Virus record (IMG/VR): IMGVR_UViG_3300034103_001442
Coordinates: 87,741-151,740 of that record
Length of the DNA stretch: 64,000 nucleotides
From: a virus
Strand: one strand, 5' to 3'
Below, piece after piece: positions 5,967 to 28,465 of this stretch. Within the stretch, counting starts at the first letter, position 1. Each line of letters starts with the position of its first letter. Both the position numbers and the translations under genes were made by a program. Below the pieces are notes generated by a model. The model worked only from the letters and a program-made list of their open reading frames with translations. It was not told where the DNA came from and did not search any database.

Positions 5967-6326
5967 TCAACTCCGATAAGTCTGTTCTGTTTCACGAATC
6001 CAGAACGCAGCATCTTCGGACTCAGAATCCCAAGAAGAATCTGCATCATACTGACGCAACAATTGCTCCGTCGTTTGCAGATCATCCAAGTAACCACGAC
6101 CGAACTGCGCAAGACGACCCTGCACATCTTCGCATGCAAAGTCAGAATCCCAATCGAACTCTGCTTGAAATGCATCGCAATAATCGCAAGAACCGAATGC
6201 GCCTTGCACCCAGCCACGCTGACCTTGGTACTCGACCAAAGCAACCCATGAGCCTTGCCAGTCACCAAACTCCTGAAACGCGATCACTCGCGCACCAGCA
6301 GCAACCAATGAATCTTGATATGACAT
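5967..6326 (-). CDS. hypothetical protein
   Basis: GSCDYCD motif; promoter at 6333-6364. Confidence 0.65.
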   Translation of the reverse strand: MSYQDSLVAAGARVIAFQEFGDWQGSWVALVEYQGQRGWVQGAFGSCDYCDAFQAEFDWDSDFACEDVQGRLAQFGRGYLDDLQTTEQLLRQYDADSSWDSESEDAAFWIRETEQTYRS

Positions 6327-6362
6327 ATTAAGAATATACCCTACCTTGAAAATAAAATAAAG

Positions 6363-6617
6363 TTAGGCAACCACCTGAATGCGCGGCTCAATCCACTCGT
6401 CGTCGAACATGTGCTGACCAGGAAGGGGAGCAACGAAAGTGTCAGACCAGAACCTCTCTTCAACCTTACCCTCCCACACACGCTTGATCTTGTTGGCGCG
6501 GAAAGTGCCATCAGGAAGAATGGCAGTCACGAGACCGACATAATAACAATCCGTCGTGCTCGGAAAATCGAGCGACTTCACGACGGAACCTACTTCAACA
6601 GTGTTTTCAGTTTTCAT
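6363..6617 (-). CDS. hypothetical protein
   Basis: ORF immediately after promoter 6624-6655. Confidence 0.65.
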   Translation of the reverse strand: MKTENTVEVGSVVKSLDFPSTTDCYYVGLVTAILPDGTFRANKIKRVWEGKVEERFWSDTFVAPLPGQHMFDDEWIEPRIQVVA

Positions 6618-6623
6618 ATTATC

Positions 6624-6655
6624 AGTATAGGTTATTTCAGAAATAAAGAAAAGTC
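6624..6655 (-). promoter_or_regulatory. phage early/middle-type promoter
   Basis: TTTTCT-TTATTTCTGAAATAACC-TATACT; 24 nt identical to the 1692 copy. Confidence 0.75.
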
Positions 6656-6690
6656 TTTTATTTTAATAAGAATCAATGAGTTACAGGCAT

Positions 6691-6850
6691 AAAAAAAGGG
6701 TGCCCTTTCGGACACCCTCCCACGATGCGTGTATCGAGAGGAACCCCACCTGCTGAGAACCAGCTGCCTCGACTGTTCCAATCGTCTCTAACGAGACACT
6801 TGCCACTTTACGGACTCTAGAAACCGTAACCCACGCACCACATTGTGTAG
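6691..6850 (-). ncRNA. putative late-transcribed structured ncRNA (about 160 nt) with terminator
   Basis: TATAAATA at 6854-6861; multibranch fold closed by GGTGCGTG/CACGCATC; GGGTGTCC-GAAA-GGGCACCC-T7 terminator; no ORF in track. Confidence 0.6.
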
Positions 6851-6886
6851 TCTTATTTATAATGGGAAGTTGATTTTTTCAAAAAA

Positions 6887-8281
6887 TTATTTAAAATTTT
6901 GGAATTTTGTTTTGTCAAATTTGAACTCTGTGATCTTTTCGCCAAACTTTCCCTTATCAGCCACTGGACCATCATCCATGATATTGTGTTGGGCTGCAAC
7001 CTCAACATCATAGAGTTTCATCTTTGACCTATCAATACCAACAACAAATCTTCGGTTGTTGCCTGGATCACCATAACGGTTCTTCAACTGCTTGACCAAA
7101 ATTTGGTTCATGCGTTCAAGTTCCTCAGTGCTGATCAACGCAAACATAAAGTCAGCCGTAGCAGGTAGACCAAATGACTCGGAGGTATCTTCAAGTCCAA
7201 CATCAGAGTTTGTAAAGCCAGACCTGTTCGTTTGGGTTGCTGATATAATTGGAACGTTAGACTCAACCGCAAGCCCACGCAACTCTTCAGCAATTGCCTT
7301 GATGTACATATAACTGTTGACATTGCTGTTTGGCTTGATTCTTGATGAGGCGCAAATGTTCAGATAGTCAATGTAGATAATATCAGGGACAAAGTTTTTC
7401 TTGACTTTCAACTCACCAAGCAGGTGGCGAAAGTTTGCCGAGCCAGCACAAGCAGTTGGATACTCTTTGACGATCAACTTACCCTTGGCTTTTTCTCTAA
7501 TTTTAGTAATCTTGCGGTCATATGAGTCTTTTGGTAAGTCCTTGAGTTCATCAAGGGTGACATCCATAAGGTTGGCATCAATACGTTCAGCAATCTTTTC
7601 CTCAGCCATTTCCATGGTGATATACAAAACGTTGTAACCACTGATAAGGTTGTATGCCGCGCAATGACACATAAACAAAGATTTACCAACGCCTGTTCCC
7701 GCGAGCGCGATGTTCAAAGTTTTTTTGGGCAAACCGCCATCGGTAATTTTGTTAAAGTATTCGAGGTCAAATGGAATCTTTGACTCACGCTTATGATACA
7801 ATTCAAAACGTTCATCAGAGTCGAGAAGGAAGTCGTGACCGATGCTACTATCAAATGATACACCAAGCGCATCAGATAAAATTTTTGGAATTGATCCAAC
7901 TGAAATCTTATCGTCTTTTTTATCAACCAACTTAATGGCTTCCATCAATGCATTGTATAGTGCCTTGTCTTTACAAAACTCTTCAGTGCGGTCAACCAAC
8001 CAATCGAGTTCACGGTCTTCACTTTCTTTCAGTGTTCCAATCAACTCTTTGGTTAATTTAAACTGCTCTTCATTCAGATCAGTTGAACTTTGAATATCAA
8101 TCAGCAACGCTTCCTTGGTCGGAAGTTTGTTATATTGTTTTACATACTTATCAATCAATTCAAAAATAACTTTGTGATTGCGGTCACGGAAATAATCGAC
8201 ACGCAAAAACGGTATGACCTTACGGGCATACTCTTCCCTATATATCAGGTTACCAAAAATTATTTCTTCGATGTTGATCAT
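6887..8281 (-). CDS. 41: replicative DNA helicase (DnaB-like)
   Basis: Walker A AGTGVGKS, IDYLNI, SESFGLPATAD, KNRY. Confidence 0.95.
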   Translation of the reverse strand: MINIEEIIFGNLIYREEYARKVIPFLRVDYFRDRNHKVIFELIDKYVKQYNKLPTKEALLIDIQSSTDLNEEQFKLTKELIGTLKESEDRELDWLVDRTEEFCKDKALYNALMEAIKLVDKKDDKISVGSIPKILSDALGVSFDSSIGHDFLLDSDERFELYHKRESKIPFDLEYFNKITDGGLPKKTLNIALAGTGVGKSLFMCHCAAYNLISGYNVLYITMEMAEEKIAERIDANLMDVTLDELKDLPKDSYDRKITKIREKAKGKLIVKEYPTACAGSANFRHLLGELKVKKNFVPDIIYIDYLNICASSRIKPNSNVNSYMYIKAIAEELRGLAVESNVPIISATQTNRSGFTNSDVGLEDTSESFGLPATADFMFALISTEELERMNQILVKQLKNRYGDPGNNRRFVVGIDRSKMKLYDVEVAAQHNIMDDGPVADKGKFGEKITEFKFDKTKFQNFK

Positions 8282-9333
8282 TCAGACTCCACAAATTCTT
8301 CGTTGCCTTCGTCATCGGTCATGCCGTAACTGTAATACTTTTTGGCAGCGGCTTCAAGTTGTTCCATAACTTCCTTGGTGAAGAATTTTTCTGGCTCATC
8401 ATTGATTGCCTTACCGAAAACTTTATCACCATTTGGAAGTTCGTAGCGAGTGCTGACCTTCTTAAATACCCCAGCCTTCTCAGCAAGTTCAAGCAAGCCA
8501 TAGTATTTGTCAAGACCAGACTTGTATGAAAGTTTCACAACAGCGGAGGCGTTTTCCTTCGACATACGTGACTTATACATCTTGATCTTAATCAAGTTAC
8601 CAACAACATCAGTGCCATCCTTGTCTTTGCTCTTTGAAAGCATAGCAATGGTTGATGCGGCATACTTCAAACCAGTGCCGCCCGAGATTTCATTTGTCGG
8701 AACATAAGCACCAACTGCAGCATAAACGTGATTGGTCAGAAGCATTGGAATTTTAGCCCGAGCAAGTTTTAAAGTCAATACCCTGAATGCAGCCTTGATG
8801 ACCTGTGCCTTGGTCATATCGCGAGTTTCCTTACCCTCAGAACTATCTTCCATTTCTTTTGTAGTTGACAGCATGCCAAGTGAGTCAAGCACAAACATCA
8901 TTGGGGGACGTTTATCGGCAGGGCGTGCGATGTAAGCATCAATCAACTTAATGGCATGATGACGAAACTTCTGAATTGTATCAGGCTCGGCATAAATGAC
9001 ACGGTTGACATCAACGCCACGTGACTTCATCATATCACGAGTCACTGCGGCTTCGGTGTCATAATAAACAACGCCAGCGTCAGGGTTGTTGTCAAGAAAG
9101 TTCTTGACGATGCCGAGGACGAAAAATGTTTTACCAGTTGATGATTCACCAGCGAATGCAGTGATTTTGTTATTTGGAACACCACCATACAAACTACCAC
9201 TCAACACTGCGTTGAGCATGTATGATCCAGTGTCAATGAAACCAGAATATTCACCAGCACCCTCGCCATCTGCAACGATGCTTGTATCCTCGTCTTTAAT
9301 TTGATCTACTAAACTTCTAAAAAAATCGGTCAT
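8278..9333 (-). CDS. uvsX: RecA-like recombinase
   Basis: AGESSTGKT, YYDTE, LDSLGML; synteny with gp41. Confidence 0.95.
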   Translation of the reverse strand: MTDFFRSLVDQIKDEDTSIVADGEGAGEYSGFIDTGSYMLNAVLSGSLYGGVPNNKITAFAGESSTGKTFFVLGIVKNFLDNNPDAGVVYYDTEAAVTRDMMKSRGVDVNRVIYAEPDTIQKFRHHAIKLIDAYIARPADKRPPMMFVLDSLGMLSTTKEMEDSSEGKETRDMTKAQVIKAAFRVLTLKLARAKIPMLLTNHVYAAVGAYVPTNEISGGTGLKYAASTIAMLSKSKDKDGTDVVGNLIKIKMYKSRMSKENASAVVKLSYKSGLDKYYGLLELAEKAGVFKKVSTRYELPNGDKVFGKAINDEPEKFFTKEVMEQLEAAAKKYYSYGMTDDEGNEEFVESE

Positions 9334-13692: not shown

Positions 13693-14166
13693 TCACTTTT
13701 CTTCGACTAAAAGTTGTGGTGAAGTTTTAATTTCGATTTTCTTCGGCTTTTTGTGTTCTGGAATAACATCAACCAGAGTCACAGTCAACATACCATTAGC
13801 AAGCACCGCAGACTCAACTTGAATTGTATCTGCTAGAGTAAACTGACGAGTAAATGCCCTGTCAGAAATACCACGGTAAACATAATGAATATCTTTGTCC
13901 ACGTCAAGTCGATCGAGCGTTTCATGATTGCCTTTGATTGTCAATTTACCATCTGCGACTGAAATGTCGATGTCATTTTCAGCAAAACCAGCCACTGCGA
14001 GTTCAAGCACATACTTGTCCTCGTTCATGATTTTCTTTACATTGAATGGTGGGTAGTTGGCTTTACCGTATGCAGCAGCCTCATTGAATTGTTTCATGAG
14101 TCTGTCAGCGCCAAGAAAATAACGCTCAAATAGATCATTACCAAATACGTCTTTTACGTATGTCAT
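13693..14166 (-). CDS. small heat-shock protein (Hsp20/IbpA family)
   Basis: NYPPFNV, ELAVAGF, YRGISDRAFTRQF, LANGML, IPEHKKPKKIEI. Confidence 0.95.
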   Translation of the reverse strand: MTYVKDVFGNDLFERYFLGADRLMKQFNEAAAYGKANYPPFNVKKIMNEDKYVLELAVAGFAENDIDISVADGKLTIKGNHETLDRLDVDKDIHYVYRGISDRAFTRQFTLADTIQVESAVLANGMLTVTLVDVIPEHKKPKKIEIKTSPQLLVEEK

Positions 14167-14226: not shown

Positions 14227-14234
14227 TATTTATA

Positions 14235-23609: not shown

Positions 23610-23682
23610 GGTAGCGGAGCCGAGAGTTGCACTCGGAATTGAGGATTATGAGTCCTCTGTGATGCTGTTTCACTACCCCGCA
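23610..23682 (-). tRNA. tRNA-fMet-like (CAT)
   Basis: TGCGGGG..., anticodon arm GAGGA-CTCATAA-TCCTC, 1:72 mismatch; ends ACC(G). Confidence 0.8.
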
Positions 23683-23687
23683 ATAGA

Positions 23688-23921
23688 TCACTTCTCGCAC
23701 TTGTCCAGCAAGTAGGCTTTCGCAGTACGTAATTCTGAGTTTGACAAAGAACCATCGTTGTTCTTGTCTGCTCTTTCAAAAAGTTTTGCATCAACATCGC
23801 AATAACGGTTGAGGTCTTCAAGTGTTACCTTACCATCTTGATCAAAATCGTAAATTGATACACGGTCAACTGCCAATGCTGGTGTTGATGCGAGAGCGAG
23901 TGCTAGAATAAACTTCTTCAT
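23688..23921 (-). CDS. secreted EF-hand protein
   Basis: Signal peptide ending ALA; DFDQDGKVTLED and DKNNDGSLSNSE loops. Confidence 0.8.
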   Translation of the reverse strand: MKKFILALALASTPALAVDRVSIYDFDQDGKVTLEDLNRYCDVDAKLFERADKNNDGSLSNSELRTAKAYLLDKCEK

Positions 23922-24334
23922 TTTGTGATTTCTCCAATTTTCTTATAACCGTTACCAGTGGGATGTATGCCATCTTTTGATAGGGATGGAATCCTAATAA
24001 TCCAATCACCATACATCTCCGCAATACTTTCTACATACTCTTGAATTCTGACGATAGGGATTTCGCTAGTCTTTGCATTACCAGCAGGAAGAATCCAGTA
24101 TACCGTTTCTGCTTGTACTCGTTCGCGCAGTTTAAACAGTTCCTTTTCAGTCTTAATGTACTTGTGGTCATTACTACCAAGACTGATTACAACAATCCTA
24201 CCAGCAAATTTTTGCGGATACTTTTTGTTGAATTGTGTGGTATTGATTCCACTCGTAGCATAAGCCACACACTCGGGGCGAGCCTGTGCAGTGCCAACAG
24301 CAATACTATCACCCAAAATCAAACAGTCAATCAT
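23918..24334 (-). CDS. SGNH/GDSL hydrolase
   Basis: GDSIAVG, SLGSND, DGIHP. Confidence 0.85.
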   Translation of the reverse strand: MIDCLILGDSIAVGTAQARPECVAYATSGINTTQFNKKYPQKFAGRIVVISLGSNDHKYIKTEKELFKLRERVQAETVYWILPAGNAKTSEIPIVRIQEYVESIAEMYGDWIIRIPSLSKDGIHPTGNGYKKIGEITK

Positions 24335-24517
24335 ATTTCTTTTTTATGCCAATAATTTGGTATACGACAAAATGTCGCACACTTACTTATATAGAATCAG
24401 CCCTTTTTTTGGCTCTTTCTATTAATTTTTTTACCCTGACCGAAAATGCGCTCCCAGTTTTTGTCAAACTGTTTTTTTGGGATGCTCAACGGTCTTTGTT
24501 TACTACCTTTGGACATA

Positions 24518-25090
24518 TCAATTTTTCCAAACACGACTGTTCTTTGGGATACTCGCCATCAAGTATTCCATTTGATCAGCGAGCACCTTACGATTTTTCA
24601 GTAGTATACGTTCATGCACAGTTGGTGCATATGGAACATAGATCAAATGCATCTTGGCTTCTTCTGGTGTACGGTTGCCTTTACGATGATTACATGAACG
24701 GCAAGCAGTGACACAGTTAGTCCACTGATTTGTACCGCCTCGGGATTTCGGATGAACATGGTCAATCGTCAATTGGCTTGATGAAAACTCATCACCACAG
24801 TATGCACAAATATGCCAGTCACGAGCATACAACGTCATTCGATCAGCAAATTTGGTTTGTTGATTGTAAAACTTATCACCAAGCAATGGACCACTGACAC
24901 CGATGATTGAAGAAATATCAATGCGTGATTGCTCGCCAAAATTGTTACGCCCACCAAACATGGACTTCACTTTGGTTCCCAATTCCCACAACACTTTTTC
25001 TTTTGCGTAATAACAAGCAGCCATTTCAAAATTCACCCAGTCTTTGGGCATGCCGCCTTTATCAACAACCAATACCAGTGACACAATCAA
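24518..25090 (-). CDS. HNH endonuclease (McrA-like)
   Basis: RD..CAYCG, TIDHVHPKSRGG, W.NCVTAC.SCN..KG. Confidence 0.9.
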   Translation of the reverse strand: MIVSLVLVVDKGGMPKDWVNFEMAACYYAKEKVLWELGTKVKSMFGGRNNFGEQSRIDISSIIGVSGPLLGDKFYNQQTKFADRMTLYARDWHICAYCGDEFSSSQLTIDHVHPKSRGGTNQWTNCVTACRSCNHRKGNRTPEEAKMHLIYVPYAPTVHERILLKNRKVLADQMEYLMASIPKNSRVWKN

Positions 25091-25223
25091 CTCCTACCAG
25101 TGATGGATAATATTTGCTATGATAAAAATACAAGTTACGATTTCTAGGGCACGGATACACCACCAAATAACTGGTGTATGTTTTTCAACTTTTCTACTAT
25201 ATCTAGTGATCATATTTTATTTA

Positions 25224-25307
25224 TGGTGCCCAGAAGAGGACTCGAACCTCCATGCCTTTCGACGGCAGATTCTAAGTCTGCTGTGTATACCATTCCACCA
25301 TCTGGGC
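25224..25307 (-). tRNA. tRNA-Leu(TAG)
   Basis: Cloverleaf, GCAGA-CTTAGAA-TCTGC, CCA. Confidence 0.92.
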
Positions 25308-25318
25308 GTTTTAAATTT

Positions 25319-25408
25319 TGGCGGAAGCGGAAGGATTCGAACCTTCGTGTCCCGTTAAGGACTGCTTGTTTTCAAGACAAGTGCGATCAACCACTCTGCC
25401 ACGCTTCC
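25319..25408 (-). tRNA. tRNA-Ser(TGA)
   Basis: CTTGT-CTTGAAA-ACAAG, long variable arm, CCA. Confidence 0.92.
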
Positions 25409-25420
25409 AAAATTTTATTC

Positions 25421-25738
25421 CTACGAATTTATCTTATAATACTCTTTCATGATAAAAAAGTCAAGCGCCTTAACAATCTTGCTAATCCTATAGGACTGAT
25501 TGTCACCTGCCGCTTGACGTGTTTGATGGTTTACTAGATGTAACTCATAAACCAAATCTTCAAATGTAATACTTTTGTTTCTAATTTTCCGTAGTATTTC
25601 ACGGTATTGTTCCGCGTATTGATATACTTCTTTGTTGTATGAAATACCACTAGCAGATGCACCTTTGTTATCAAGCGCATCGCAAAGCATATCAACATGC
25701 GGCTGTAAATCTTCGAACCGTAATTTCTTTTGTGTCAT
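25421..25738 (-). CDS. hypothetical protein within tRNA array
   Basis: ORF track; AT-rich. Confidence 0.5.
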   Translation of the reverse strand: MTQKKLRFEDLQPHVDMLCDALDNKGASASGISYNKEVYQYAEQYREILRKIRNKSITFEDLVYELHLVNHQTRQAAGDNQSYRISKIVKALDFFIMKEYYKINS

Positions 25739-25743
25739 AAAAT

Positions 25744-25817
25744 TGGAGCGGGATGCGAGAATCGAACTCGCGCGTAAACCTTGGCAAGGTTTCAGGCTAC
25801 CATTACATCAATCCCGC
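25744..25817 (-). tRNA. tRNA-Gly(GCC)
   Basis: AAACC-TTGCCAA-GGTTT, CCA. Confidence 0.92.
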
Positions 25818-25829
25818 ATAAATAGTTAT

Positions 25830-26006
25830 ATGGAAATATCGAATGTAAAAGAAAATAGTTTGATACAAGGTAATTTAGTCGAAAAACCTAAACCTGTACC
25901 GCAAGTACCTTCCGAGTCCAGTTTACTCTCAACACCGCCAGAAGAAATTCAAAAAAATATAGAGCGTTGGAGAGAGTTTAATGAACGCATACATGTAGTT
26001 GTTTAA
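25830..26006 (+). CDS. small hypothetical protein antisense to tRNA operon
   Basis: MEISNVKE...; CATAAATA just upstream; fills the tRNA spacer. Confidence 0.4.
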   Translation: MEISNVKENSLIQGNLVEKPKPVPQVPSESSLLSTPPEEIQKNIERWREFNERIHVVV

Positions 26007-26008
26007 AA

Positions 26009-26083
26009 TGGTGCGCGATGAGAGGGTCGAACTCCCGACATTTGCCGTGTAAAGGCACTACTCTACCACTGAGTTAATCGCGC
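26009..26083 (-). tRNA. tRNA-Val(TAC)
   Basis: TGCC-TTTACAC-GGCA, CCA. Confidence 0.9.
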
Positions 26084-26084
26084 A

Positions 26085-26381
26085 TTAATTCGTCAACACT
26101 CTATATAGACCATAAGTGTCTACAATAGTCAATAGCAAATAATTAGCAAACATACCAAAACTATTTCGTGTCCATGCCGCCCAAGCATACATGGCGCAAC
26201 CACTCATCCAAAATGGATATAACAATTTGAGTGGTGGATCGGGAACAGTTACAGCCATAGCAACGGTGCAACCGATACTGATAATCCAAGCGATCACTTC
26301 AACGCAAAATCTAAACGGATACGATTGATAATCGGTTTTCGCCCAATTCCATGTATCAACCATTGCTTTTTTGATAATCAT
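26085..26381 (-). CDS. small membrane protein
   Basis: About three hydrophobic segments; GAGGG SD. Confidence 0.7.
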   Translation of the reverse strand: MIIKKAMVDTWNWAKTDYQSYPFRFCVEVIAWIISIGCTVAMAVTVPDPPLKLLYPFWMSGCAMYAWAAWTRNSFGMFANYLLLTIVDTYGLYRVLTN

Positions 26382-26394
26382 AGTTCCCTCAATT

Positions 26395-26470
26395 TGGCGC
26401 GCTCGGCAGGATTCGAACCTGCGTATATCTGCTTAGAAGGCAGATGCCTCATCCACTAGACTACGAGCGC
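26395..26470 (-). tRNA. tRNA-Arg(TCT)
   Basis: TCTGC-CTTCTAA-GCAGA, CCA. Confidence 0.92.
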
Positions 26471-26471
26471 A

Positions 26472-26545
26472 TGGAGCAGAGTAGGAGAATCGAACTCCTT
26501 TGACCAGCTTGGAAGGCTGGGACACAACCAATATGCCAACTCTGC
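26472..26545 (-). tRNA. tRNA-Gly(TCC)
   Basis: CCAGC-CTTCCAA-GCTGG, CCA. Confidence 0.92.
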
Positions 26546-26552
26546 GTAACAC

Positions 26553-26637
26553 TGGTGCGACTGGTCGGACTTGAACCGACATGGCTAACGCCGACAGATT
26601 TTAAGTCTGTTGTGTATACCGATTCCACCACAGTCGC
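26553..26637 (-). tRNA. tRNA-Leu(TAA)
   Basis: ACAGA-CTTAAAA-TCTGT, CCA. Confidence 0.92.
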
Positions 26638-26642
26638 GAAAA

Positions 26643-26719
26643 TGGTCGGACAGAGAGGATTCGAACCTCCGACCCTCTGCTCCCAAAGCAGATGCACTAC
26701 CAGGCTGTGCTACTGTCCG
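26643..26719 (-). tRNA. tRNA-Pro(TGG)
   Basis: TCTGC-TTTGGGA-GCAGA, CCA. Confidence 0.92.
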
Positions 26720-26727
26720 ATTTATAC

Positions 26728-26756
26728 ATTATAAGTTAGTGATGAAATAAAGTCAA
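26728..26756 (-). promoter_or_regulatory. internal sigma70-like promoter of tRNA array
   Basis: TTGACT-17-TATAAT. Confidence 0.75.
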
Positions 26757-26757
26757 G

Positions 26758-26834
26758 TGGTGCGCCCACTAGGACTTGAACCTAGAATCAACAGATTATG
26801 AGTCTGCTGCATTAACCAATTATGCTATAGGCGC
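26758..26834 (-). tRNA. tRNA-CAT (probably Ile2; Met not excluded)
   Basis: CAGA-CTCATAA-TCTG, CCA. Confidence 0.85.
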
Positions 26835-26838
26835 GAAA

Positions 26839-26913
26839 TGGAGTTGCGGACTGGACTCGCACCAGCATAGAACAGTTTTGCAGACTGTCGCCTAACTTCT
26901 CAGCCACCGCAAC
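26839..26913 (-). tRNA. tRNA-Cys(GCA)
   Basis: ACAGT-CTGCAAA-ACTGT, U73, CCA. Confidence 0.88.
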
Positions 26914-26986
26914 AAAATTTACTGATCGGTAAAATTTTGTTAACAATAATTAACAATGTCAAAAAATTTACTGATCGGGAAAATTT
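26914..26986. repeat. two copies of a near-palindromic 23-bp element
   Basis: AAAATTTACTGATCGG(T/G)AAAATTT at 26914 and 26963. Confidence 0.8.
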
Positions 26987-27061
26987 GGTAGCAACGGTTG
27001 GACTCGAACCAACGATAAACTCCGTATGAAGGAGGTGCATTAGCCACTATGCTACGTTGCC
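26986..27061 (-). tRNA. tRNA-Met(CAT), elongator type
   Basis: CTCC-TTCATAC-GGAG, CCA. Confidence 0.88.
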
Positions 27062-27063
27062 AT

Positions 27064-27150
27064 TGGCGGAAGGCAGTGTACTCGAAACACATTCCCAAAG
27101 GGAACCATCTGTTTAGCAAACAGCGACAGATCCTCTCTGCTTTACCTTCC
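27064..27150 (-). tRNA. tRNA-Ser(GCT)
   Basis: CTGT-TTGCTAA-ACAG, long variable arm, CCA. Confidence 0.88.
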
Positions 27151-27155
27151 TAAAA

Positions 27156-27232
27156 TGGCGACTCGGATGGGACTTGAACCCACGACCTCATGCGTGACAG
27201 GCATGTGAACTAACCAACTGTTCTACCGAGCC
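27156..27232 (-). tRNA. tRNA-Asp(GTC)
   Basis: CATGC-CTGTCAC-GCATG, CCA. Confidence 0.92.
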
Positions 27233-27236
27233 AACT

Positions 27237-27313
27237 TGGTGGGACAAGATGGATTCGAACCATCGACCTCAGTCTTATCAGGACTGTGCGCTAACCAACT
27301 GTGCCATTGTCCC
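27237..27313 (-). tRNA. tRNA-Ile(GAT)
   Basis: CAGTC-CTGATAA-GACTG, CCA. Confidence 0.92.
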
Positions 27314-27319
27314 GAATAA

Positions 27320-27406
27320 TGGTGGGAAAGGAAGGATTCGAACCTACTCAGCCGATTGGCGACAGATTTACAGTCTGTTGTGACTCTCCAACTTCACCGC
27401 TTGCCC
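27320..27406 (-). tRNA. tRNA-Tyr(GTA)
   Basis: ACAGA-CTGTAAA-TCTGT, CCA. Confidence 0.92.
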
Positions 27407-27415
27407 ACATAAACT

Positions 27416-27489
27416 TGGCTGAGGCGCATGGATTCGAACCACGATAAGCAGGATCAAAACCTGCTGTCCTGCCGTTAGACGACGCCTCA
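27416..27489 (-). tRNA. tRNA-Gln(TTG)
   Basis: GCAGG-TTTTGAT-CCTGC, CCA. Confidence 0.92.
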
Positions 27490-27497
27490 AAAATAAA

Positions 27498-27717
27498 ATG
27501 CTTCCCCCTGCAGGCGGTTTTTGTCGTCCCACCACAAACACTTATGTGGTATCCGCATCCCAACACAGGGAGATTGTCGTATTGCCAACGCTGAACTTCA
27601 TCAGGGAGATCACTATGGGAATCCAACCCATTTCTCATCATGCGTGTCGCACTAGCCATTGGATTCATGGCACGTTATGATAGCCGACACGTACATTGCT
27701 GCAGAGGTGTCGGGCAT
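27498..27717 (-). ncRNA. putative 220-nt structured ncRNA between tRNA-Ala and tRNA-Gln
   Basis: Closing helices ATGC/GCAT and CCTCTGCAG/CTGCAGGGG; several hairpins; complementary loops. Confidence 0.65.
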
Positions 27718-27721
27718 ATTT

Positions 27722-27796
27722 TGGTGGAGGATGAGAGAATCGAACTCTCAACTCTGCGATGCAAACGCAGCGTGTTCCCATTAGCACTAATCCCCC
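27722..27796 (-). tRNA. tRNA-Ala(TGC)
   Basis: CTGCG-TTTGCAT-CGCAG, G3:U70, CCA. Confidence 0.92.
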
Positions 27797-27801
27797 AATA
27801 A

Positions 27802-27955
27802 GGTGTGGGCTACCATTTAAGGTTTGTTCTTAATCCTTACCCCCACACAGCAAGGTTGCGATCCGTTCTGCCTCATAATTCGATCAGTGCTACCGAAACG
27901 GATAAGCCCTTACACTGATAGGATGAACCCGACAGAGCGCGCCTGCAGGTCACCA
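27802..27955 (-). ncRNA. putative pseudoknotted ncRNA between tRNA-Asn and tRNA-Ala
   Basis: ATCAGTGT/GCACTGAT, TCTGTC/GGCAGA, ATCCGTT/AACGGAT, GTGTGGG/CCCACAC. Confidence 0.55.
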
Positions 27956-27958
27956 AGA

Positions 27959-28033
27959 TGGCTGGCGAGGATGGGATCGAACCATCGACAGGCTGATTAA
28001 CAGTCAGCTGATCTACCTCTGATCTACTCGCCA
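27959..28033 (-). tRNA. tRNA-Asn(GTT)
   Basis: GCTGA-CTGTTAA-TCAGC, CCA. Confidence 0.92.
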
Positions 28034-28045
28034 AAAAAATTAAAC

Positions 28046-28120
28046 TGGCTCCCCGATACGGACTCGAACCGCAACCAACAGTTTTGGAGACTGCGATGCT
28101 ACCAATTACACCATCGAGGA
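28046..28120 (-). tRNA. tRNA-Trp(CCA)
   Basis: GCAGT-CTCCAAA-ACTGT, CCA. Confidence 0.9.
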
Positions 28121-28132
28121 ACAATCACAATA

Positions 28133-28208
28133 TGGTGAGACCACTGGGACTCGAACCCAGAACTTACGAGTTAAAAGCACGTTACTCTACCAGTTGAGTT
28201 ATGGTCTC
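28133..28208 (-). tRNA. tRNA-Lys(TTT)
   Basis: ACGTG-CTTTTAA-CTCGT (one mismatch), CCA. Confidence 0.9.
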
Positions 28209-28222
28209 AAATTCATAATATA

Positions 28223-28297
28223 TGGTGAACCCAAGGGAATTCGAATCCCTATTCCATCCGTGAAAGGGATGTGTCCTAACCGTTAGACGATGGGTCC
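28223..28297 (-). tRNA. tRNA-Glu(TTC)
   Basis: CATCC-CTTTCAC-GGATG, CCA. Confidence 0.9.
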
Positions 28298-28303
28298 GCA
28301 AAA

Positions 28304-28385
28304 GGTGCTGGTTACTCATCCAGCGTCACAATGTGCTTCGGGGTGACAGTCTCCGCTGCTACGAACTTCTGATAGCAGTCAGGTT
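28304..28385 (-). ncRNA. putative three-hairpin small RNA between tRNA-Thr and tRNA-Glu
   Basis: CTGCTA/TAGCAG, GTCAC/GTGAC, GCTGG/CCAGC + ACC. Confidence 0.45.
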
Positions 28386-28389
28386 AAAT

Positions 28390-28465
28390 TGGTGCCTTCA
28401 GAGAGACTCGAACTCCCAACCTACTGATTACAAATCAGTTGCACTACCAATTGTGCTATGAAGGC
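28390..28465 (-). tRNA. tRNA-Thr(TGT)
   Basis: ACTGA-TTTGTAA-TCAGT, CCA. Confidence 0.92.

What the first reader, a model, noticed from the sequence alone, without database searches (positions are those of the whole stretch)
6691..6861. Stand-alone late ncRNA gene downstream of gp41
A perfect T4 late promoter TATAAATA and a GNRA-capped terminator bracket about 160 nt with no ORF in the track. The RNA folds as a multiway junction: GGTGCGTG/CACGCATC, TTACGG/CCGTAA, GTCTC-GTTA-GAGAC, GATTG-GAA-CAGTC, GAGG...CCTC. A gp55-dependent ncRNA in an otherwise early region suggests a late function (packaging, virion cargo or regulation).
Basis: partly seen in the sequence, partly recalled or inferred. 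Interest (0 to 1): 0.7.

Follow-up and report, generated by a model that had tools for sequence, protein, structure and literature searches.

The report
New late structured RNA, T4-like phages
Just after its DNA helicase gene, this uncultured freshwater T4-like phage carries a small gene for a folded non-coding RNA of about 158 bases, with its own late promoter and terminator; it belongs to an undescribed family kept by at least 85 related uncultured phages, and its job is still unknown.

Summary
On the minus strand a perfect TATAAATA (6861-6854) lies about 160 nt before a GAAA-capped terminator with a U7 tail (6717-6691), and no ORF is conserved in between.

Two covariance models found 91 copies (85 distinct) in IMG/VR contigs. 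All carry TATAAATA or an NNTAAATA variant. About 87% have a clear terminator.

The fold is a four-way junction (P1-P4) plus a small hairpin, P5. In the alignment 96% of cells pair, against 64% when shuffled, and 29 of 30 pairs show compensatory changes. GGCA, GGAA and the P5 hairpin GG-UGGGGUU-CC are invariant.

In 81 of 85 loci the RNA lies next to the 3' end of gp41. It is co-directional in 63 and inverted on its own in 18, and the inverted copies form one gp41 clade. Downstream genes vary and no antiterminator pairing is detectable. It is therefore an autonomous RNA gene, not a riboswitch or leader.

Nothing matches in Rfam 15, in T4 (including rnaC and rnaD), or in five cultured relatives.

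Function is not shown. My best inference is a trans-acting folded RNA whose G-rich core binds a conserved partner. Expression was not demonstrated.

Other agents of this scan found the same family on other genomes, and my results agree with theirs.

The parts
6854..6861 (-). T4-type late promoter TATAAATA; the inferred +1 is the A at 6848
   Evidence: Sequence. Exact in 65 of 85 distinct relatives, NNTAAATA (mostly ACTAAATA) in the other 20, always just 5' of the RNA. The same octamer precedes the tail sheath and scaffold genes in this genome.
6691..6848 (-). Predicted RNA, about 158 nt, from the inferred start to the U-tract
   Evidence: R2 match at 6688-6849, 102.9 bits. Ends are inferred from the promoter and terminator, not measured.
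6832..6839 (-). P1, 5' strand (pairs with 6724-6731)
   Evidence: Six modelled pairs, all with compensatory changes, 98% of cells paired.
6724..6731 (-). P1, 3' strand
6808..6829 (-). P2 hairpin (6829-6824 pairs with 6813-6808); loop varies in sequence and length
   Evidence: Four modelled pairs, all covarying.
6798..6807 (-). Junction J2/3 with invariant GGCA (6804-6801)
   Evidence: At least 97% identical across 85 distinct sequences.
6784..6797 (-). P3 hairpin (6797-6793 pairs with 6788-6784); variable, capped by UUCG or UACG tetraloops in some relatives
6774..6783 (-). Junction J3/4 with invariant GGAA (6779-6776)
6733..6773 (-). P4 (6773-6768 pairs with 6738-6733). It encloses an optional hairpin P4a (6764-6761 with 6755-6752) and hairpin P5 (6751-6749 with 6741-6739), whose loop UGGGGUU (6748-6742) is invariant
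   Evidence: P4 is 100% paired with 5 of 6 pairs covarying. The P5 closing pair is AU 46, CG 32, UA 5, GC 2. L042 keeps P5 through a double compensatory change. P4a is absent from many relatives.
6691..6717 (-). Intrinsic terminator: 8-bp GC-rich stem, GAAA loop, U7
   Evidence: Fold. Terminator stems covary across the family. 74 of 85 pass a crude hairpin-plus-T-run test.
6887..8281 (-). gp41 DnaB-like replicative helicase, the syntenic anchor of the RNA gene (context, not part of the RNA)
   Evidence: PHROG 19, E 6e-127. gp41 lies next to the RNA in 81 of 85 loci.

Best explanation
This is an autonomous gene for a structured non-coding RNA of a previously undescribed, phage-restricted family. 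Phage late transcription (TATAAATA, gp55/gp33 type) starts at about 6848, and the transcript ends at its own strong terminator near 6691. The result is a discrete RNA of about 158 nt: a four-way junction (P1-P4) with a small hairpin P5 stacked inside P4. P2, P3 and P4a are variable spacers. All invariant nucleotides (GGCA in J2/3, GGAA in J3/4, the P5 loop UGGGGUU) sit at or next to the junction. I infer that they form one compact G-rich core that binds a conserved partner in trans late in infection. The partner is most likely a protein, phage-encoded or universal in hosts, which would make the RNA an RNP component or a decoy. A small ligand is less likely. Shown here: the gene, promoter motif, fold, terminator, synteny, autonomy and vertical inheritance. 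Inferred: late timing, the transcript ends, action in trans and the nature of the partner.
For: Family and fold: 91 matches, 85 distinct; 96.1% of cells paired against 64.4% shuffled; 29 of 30 pairs with double changes; slid controls 40-52%. All top mutual-information pairs lie in the model. Promoter kept in 85 of 85 as TATAAATA or NNTAAATA. Terminator kept. Autonomy: 63 copies co-directional with gp41 and 18 with the RNA alone inverted; downstream genes differ between subgroups; no antiterminator complementarity (median z +0.26, none below -2). Non-coding: median longest ORF 18 aa, and stops in every frame near the core in 58-67 of 85 members. Late machinery: TATAAATA before the sheath and scaffold genes, and a gp33 homologue. 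Inheritance: presence clusters on the gp41 tree (4-5 changes against about 35 when shuffled), and the inverted form is one clade with 100% support. Conserved residues lie only in junction strands and one loop. That pattern is typical of RNAs with a tertiary core rather than linear antisense seeds (general knowledge).
Against: No expression evidence. Four metatranscriptome runs gave only low-depth contig fragments. One contig runs from the gp41 3' end through the promoter into the RNA, which fits read-through or DNA carry-over equally well. No partner was identified. The small ORF family usually found between gp41 and the RNA also occurs in 24 loci without the RNA, and it is missing from this window. 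Invariant residues cannot covary, so the proposed tertiary core is untested. No cultured phage is known to carry the RNA.
Confidence: 0.5

Rival explanations
1. It is a base-pairing small RNA of the Hfq type. The single-stranded conserved G-rich segments would act as seeds that pair with C/U-rich sites in host or phage mRNAs late in infection.
For: It is a stand-alone unit with a Rho-independent terminator and U-tail, as in many sRNAs. J2/3 and J3/4 are predicted to be single-stranded and conserved.
Against: The conserved segments are short (4-7 nt) and split over three places at a junction. Complementary 8-9-mers in the 151.7-kb phage genome are few, and most, including the RNA gene's own complement, lie on the strand that carries few genes. 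The same residues are invariant in phages whose RNA G+C ranges from 35 to 58%, which probably have different hosts. That fits a structural core better than a seed.
Confidence: 0.17
2. It is a new ribozyme class, for example self-cleaving or RNA-processing, with the junction and the P5 loop forming the active site.
For: A multi-stem junction with about 19 invariant nucleotides and freely varying helices resembles the conservation pattern of small ribozymes, many of which occur in phages (general knowledge).
Against: No match to any Rfam ribozyme. A dedicated promoter and terminator are unusual for self-cleaving ribozymes. No conserved cleavage-site context is recognisable.
Confidence: 0.1
3. 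It is a cis-regulatory riboswitch or attenuator. An aptamer would control its terminator and so the read-through into downstream genes, or into antisense transcription in the inverted clade.
For: The order promoter, junction fold, terminator, ORF looks like a terminator-type riboswitch in the 63 co-directional loci. Conserved junction nucleotides suit an aptamer.
Against: In 18 of 81 loci the RNA points at the 3' end of the gp41 operon with no gene to control. Downstream genes are unrelated between subgroups. No alternative pairing between the terminator arm and the aptamer exceeds shuffles. The terminators are strong, with a variable 2-19 nt linker. Rfam riboswitch models do not match.
Confidence: 0.07
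4. It is merely the structured 3' end (stabiliser or terminator module) of the gp43-uvsX-gp41 operon mRNA.
For: There is no strong terminator between the gp41 stop codon and the RNA in this window, so operon transcripts probably read into it. One RNA-run contig bridges the gp41 end and the RNA 5' half.
Against: A late promoter is conserved in all 85 members directly 5' of the RNA. In one clade the RNA sits on the opposite strand. A terminator hairpin alone would serve as a 3' end, so the invariant junction core would be left unexplained.
Confidence: 0.05
5. It is a small protein-coding gene.
For: The window has minus-strand ORFs of 41 and 49 aa overlapping the stretch.
Against: No frame is conserved. 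The median longest ORF is 18 aa, stops interrupt all frames in most members, helices vary by paired changes, and indels are not multiples of three.
Confidence: 0.01

Closest known systems
T4 rnaC and rnaD (species 1 and 2 stable RNAs)
   Same: Small (119-139 nt), stable, structured RNAs of a T4-type phage with no known function.
   Different: They are encoded in the tRNA cluster and co-transcribed with tRNAs, not from a late promoter. Model R2 finds nothing there; the best T4 match is 15 bits, E 0.15, at an unrelated place.
manA, wcaG, PhotoRC-II and glutamine (glnA) RNA motifs of T4-like cyanophages (Weinberg et al. 2010, PMC2864571; PMC9602691)
   Same: Conserved structured RNAs first seen in aquatic metagenomes and T4-like phages of the same broad group (Kyanoviridae-like).
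   Different: Those are cis-regulatory 5' UTR elements with Rfam models. This RNA matches none of them, has its own terminator, and is orientation-independent of its neighbours.
phi29 packaging RNA (pRNA)
   Same: A phage-encoded, stand-alone, multi-helix junction RNA that acts as a folded RNA in a late process.
   Different: As far as I recall, pRNA is a three-way junction transcribed from an early promoter, multimerises through complementary loops, and is limited to phi29-like phages. Here the hairpin loops are variable and show no such covariation, and T4-type packaging motors are not known to use RNA.
Candidate structured RNAs predicted in IMG/VR (Fremin, Bhatt and Kyrpides 2023, PMC10690425)
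   Same: Same data source and same type of object: 8,495 unnamed covarying candidates in IMG/VR, 1,241 of them with an intrinsic terminator.
   Different: I could not check whether this family is among them, because the supplement is not held. That paper assigns no function and does not name it in the sections I read.
Terminator-type riboswitches
   Same: A junction fold with conserved unpaired nucleotides directly followed by an intrinsic terminator.
   Different: There is no regulated gene in the inverted clade, no antiterminator, and the downstream genes vary.

Membership tests
Any Rfam 15 family (4227 models) | Match to the family covariance model at or near its gathering score | tested here: not met
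   Window 6000-7500 at E up to 10 gave only chance hits of 18 bits or less against thresholds of 50-120. Twelve relatives at E up to 1 gave only GibS at 35 bits (threshold 115) on one locus.
New family defined here (models R1, R2) | Four-way junction P1-P4 plus P5 with invariant GGCA, GGAA and GG-UGGGGUU-CC | tested here: met
   The window scores 159.5 bits with R1 and 102.9 bits with R2 over the full model length.
New family defined here (models R1, R2) | Late promoter motif directly 5' and intrinsic terminator directly 3' | tested here: met
   TATAAATA at 6861-6854; terminator at 6717-6691. The motif is kept in 85 of 85 members, and 74 of 85 pass the terminator test.
New family defined here (models R1, R2) | Position next to the 3' end of gp41 | tested here: met
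   The promoter starts 26 nt after the gp41 stop codon in the window. gp41 is adjacent in 81 of 85 loci, at a median distance of 332 nt.
Terminator-type riboswitch | A downstream gene on the same strand in all members | tested here: not met
   18 of 81 loci are convergent with the gp41 operon.
Terminator-type riboswitch | Mutually exclusive antiterminator pairing | tested here: not met
   Duplex energies between the terminator arm and the aptamer are no better than shuffles: median z +0.26 and +0.42.
Terminator-type riboswitch | Ligand binding | not testable with these tools
   Needs in-line probing or ITC.
Hfq-type base-pairing sRNA | Conserved accessible seed with complementary targets | tested here: inconclusive
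   No enriched complementary sites in the phage genome. The host is unknown, so host targets were not testable.
Hfq-type base-pairing sRNA | Rho-independent terminator with U-tail | tested here: met
tRNA / tmRNA | Recognised by ARAGORN | tested here: not met
   The window has 22 tRNAs, none at 6691-6861.
T4 rnaC / rnaD | Sequence or structure similarity to the T4 genes | tested here: not met
   R2 on the whole T4 genome gives no match at rnaC or rnaD.

The most novel reading that the evidence does not exclude
The eight invariant guanines (GG of GGCA, GG of GGAA, GGGG of the P5 loop) and their neighbours may build a new kind of natural RNA core: a ligand pocket, possibly based on G-quartets, or a catalytic site. 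The phage would make this RNA in bulk late in infection, either to soak up a small molecule such as a host immune nucleotide signal, or to carry out an RNA-processing reaction. That would be the first RNA 'sponge' or a new ribozyme class in T4-like phages.
Probability: 0.15. Interest if true: 0.9.

Novelty: new variant of a known kind. Interest (0 to 1): 0.62.

Why it matters
T4-type phages are among the best-studied viruses, yet no stand-alone RNA gene driven by a late promoter is known in them. Here a whole lineage of abundant uncultured lake and ocean T4-like phages has inherited such a gene vertically beside the replicative helicase gene, and about 19 nucleotides have stayed unchanged while gp41 diverged to 56% identity. 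That degree of constraint implies an important interaction that is not yet on the map of phage late functions. The family is well enough defined (model, consensus, invariant core) to be tested directly in vitro. It could also be added to RNA family databases so that it is annotated in new phage genomes.

Tried and rejected
1. Rfam at permissive thresholds, on the window and on 12 relatives: nothing.

2. blastn of three family members against 50,697 isolate phage records: no match. blastn is insensitive here, so R2 was run on whole records of Melnitz-2, HTVC008M, S-CRM01, S-SM2, Syn9 and T4. No match scored above 15 bits or below E 0.15.

The best was 19.6 bits, E 0.044, in a Methanobacteriaceae MAG, taken as chance.

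4. Pattern scan of metagenome contigs: 9 of 120 hits were real, all inside larger contigs, with nothing new on context or transcript ends.

5. Expression: RNA runs held 10-18% of the sampled words, but laying them showed scattered low-depth fragments of gp41 and of the downstream ORF. One contig covered 6756-6920. No transcript ends or depths can be read from contigs.

6. Partner protein: the small ORF family with the motif LNxGGGFDGxTPxF that usually separates gp41 from the RNA is not linked to it. It occurs in 24 loci without the RNA, and the window has the RNA without it. PHROGs gives no function for it or for the window's downstream ORFs.

7. Extra pseudoknots: the mutual-information scan found none. 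A GGAA/UUCC pseudoknot is disfavoured because L042 keeps P5 by changing GG/CC to AC/GU while GGAA stays.

8. Antisense targets in the phage genome: none beyond chance.

9. The one locus with a different gene context (L099) probably reflects a contig end, not a different site.

10. The promoter/terminator scanner did not list the terminator at 6717-6691. I rely on the fold and on covariation instead.

Full report
**What is in the window.** The genes here run on the minus strand: uvsX (8278-9333) and the DnaB-like helicase gp41 (6887-8281), both confirmed by PHROGs. Twenty-six bases after the gp41 stop codon lies a perfect TATAAATA (6861-6854). About 140 nt further on is an 8-bp GC-rich hairpin with a GAAA loop and seven U (6717-6691). 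The stretch is a G+C island: 58% against 24% in the flanks. Its only ORFs are 20-49 aa. ARAGORN finds 22 tRNAs elsewhere in the window and none here. The window is part of a 151.7-kb IMG/VR virus record. Its nearest cultured relatives are the Methylophilales phage Melnitz and cyanomyoviruses, at about 65-67% nucleotide identity in uvsX/gp41. DNA runs that hold the stretch are mostly lake or freshwater metagenomes; several are filed as fungus metagenomes.

**It is a family.** Loci fetched through gp41 gave five homologues, with the promoter, helices and terminator aligned and with compensatory changes. A covariance model (R1) was then run on loci fetched with a 14-mer and with a gapped pattern of the invariant core. 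A second model (R2) followed. Together they recovered 91 copies, 85 of them distinct, all full length, at 49-137 bits.

**The fold.** On the 85 distinct sequences, 96.1% of cells form standard pairs, against 64.4% after shuffling and 40-52% when partners are slid. 29 of 30 pairs show changes on both sides.
- The fold is a four-way junction. P1 closes it, P2 and P3 are hairpins of variable length and loop sequence, and P4 carries an optional inner hairpin.
- A 3-bp hairpin, P5, sits directly 5' of the 3' strand of P4. Its closing pair occurs as AU (46), CG (32), UA (5) and GC (2).
- One member (L042) changes the two inner GC pairs of P5 to AU and CG, so the hairpin is real.
- A mutual-information scan puts every strong pair inside this model and finds no extra pseudoknot.
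- The invariant residues are GGCA in J2/3, GGAA in J3/4, and GG-UGGGGUU-CC of P5.
The proposed GATTG-GAA-CAGTC hairpin is not kept in relatives.

**It is an autonomous, non-coding gene.**
- All 85 members carry TATAAATA (65) or a close variant, mostly ACTAAATA (20), just upstream.
- 74 of 85 pass a crude hairpin-plus-T-run test, and the terminator stems covary.
- gp41 is in the held locus in 81 of 85 cases. The RNA lies beyond its 3' end at a median of 332 nt, co-directional in 63 and convergent in 18. In the convergent cases the RNA alone is on the opposite strand to all neighbouring genes.
- The genes on the far side differ between subgroups.
- The 5' arm of the terminator shows no complementarity to the aptamer-like part beyond shuffled controls: median z +0.26, none below -2. 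The linker is 2-19 nt.
- No reading frame is conserved. The median longest ORF is 18 aa, and stops interrupt each frame near the core in 58-67 of 85 members.

These points argue against a riboswitch or leader, a simple 3' UTR, and a peptide gene.

**Late timing is inferred, not shown.** TATAAATA occurs 16 times in the 151.7-kb genome, mostly 5-65 nt before ORF starts, including the tail sheath and head scaffold genes. The genome encodes a gp33 homologue. Metatranscriptome runs gave only low-depth contig fragments. One contig bridges the gp41 end and the 5' half of the RNA, which does not separate read-through from DNA carry-over.

**Evolution.** I built a gp41 tree of 104 rows, leaving out 23 loci with too little downstream flank. 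Presence of the RNA is strongly clustered: 4-5 changes against about 35 when labels are shuffled. The convergent form is a single clade with 100% support. The window groups with L005 inside a 14-row clade in which every row carries the RNA. This fits vertical inheritance with one inversion and a few losses, not a mobile element. The rows with the RNA came from pattern scans and the rows without it from a gp41 search, so the sampling is uneven.

**Comparison with what is known.**
- Rfam 15 gives nothing for the window or for 12 relatives.
- R2 finds no member in T4 (including rnaC and rnaD), Melnitz-2, HTVC008M, S-CRM01, S-SM2 or Syn9.
- Among the first 120 pattern hits in prokaryote genomes none is real.
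- The ncRNAs known in T4-like cyanophages (CfrI, PhotoRC-II, wcaG, manA, the glutamine riboswitch) are cis or antisense elements (PMC2864571, PMC9602691).
- Fremin et al. 2023 predicted 8,495 unnamed candidates in IMG/VR (PMC10690425). The family may be among them, but the supplement is not held.
- Earlier notes of this scan describe the same family on other genomes, also with function unknown. I reached the same result independently and add four things: the antiterminator test, the gp41 tree, the proof of P5, and the checks against cultured phages.

**How it most likely works.** The helices vary freely, and every invariant base sits in two junction strands and one loop. The same bases are kept in phages whose RNA G+C ranges from 35 to 58%. 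I therefore read it as a folded, trans-acting RNA whose G-rich core binds one conserved partner late in infection, most likely a protein. I put about 0.9 on 'real autonomous ncRNA gene of a new family' and about 0.4-0.5 on this mode of action. The rivals are a base-pairing sRNA, a new ribozyme, a riboswitch, a 3' UTR module and a peptide gene.

Noticed in passing
window 23610-28465 (-): Cluster of 22 tRNA genes on the minus strand (three Met, two Gly, two Leu and others). That is large for a phage of about 150 kb.
   Followed up: no
L006:4510-4821, L008:4401-4607, L097:6899-7078 and about 40 other loci: A small ORF family (59-113 aa) with the motif LNxGGGFDGxTPxF sits between gp41 and the RNA in most loci. 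It also occurs in 24 gp41 loci without the RNA and is absent from this window. The only PHROG match is to a family of unknown function.
   Followed up: partly
window 13693-14166 (-), promoter at 14227-14234: A phage Hsp20-like gene (PHROG 432, E 9e-37) is preceded by a perfect TATAAATA, which suggests late expression of a small heat-shock protein.
   Followed up: no
G000:C1:85533-85544 (about 2.2 kb before the window start): Two TATAAATA octamers overlap back to back on opposite strands (TATTTATAAATA), each 18-25 nt before a large divergent ORF: a compact bidirectional late promoter.
   Followed up: no
L097:5990-6020, L128, L095, L134, L154: In several members of the clade with the inverted RNA gene, a TTGACA lies about 15-17 nt upstream of the TATAAATA. 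This could be a host sigma-70 -35 element, so the RNA there may be made early as well as late.
   Followed up: no
window 6866-6886 (-): An A/T palindrome (T6-G-A6) fills the 25-nt gap between the gp41 stop codon and the late promoter. It is kept, with a central C, in L003-L005. It is too weak to be a terminator.
   Followed up: no
L099:2732-3635: In the one family member with a different visible context, the neighbours include a GIY-YIG-type homing endonuclease and an anti-restriction-like protein.
   Followed up: partly
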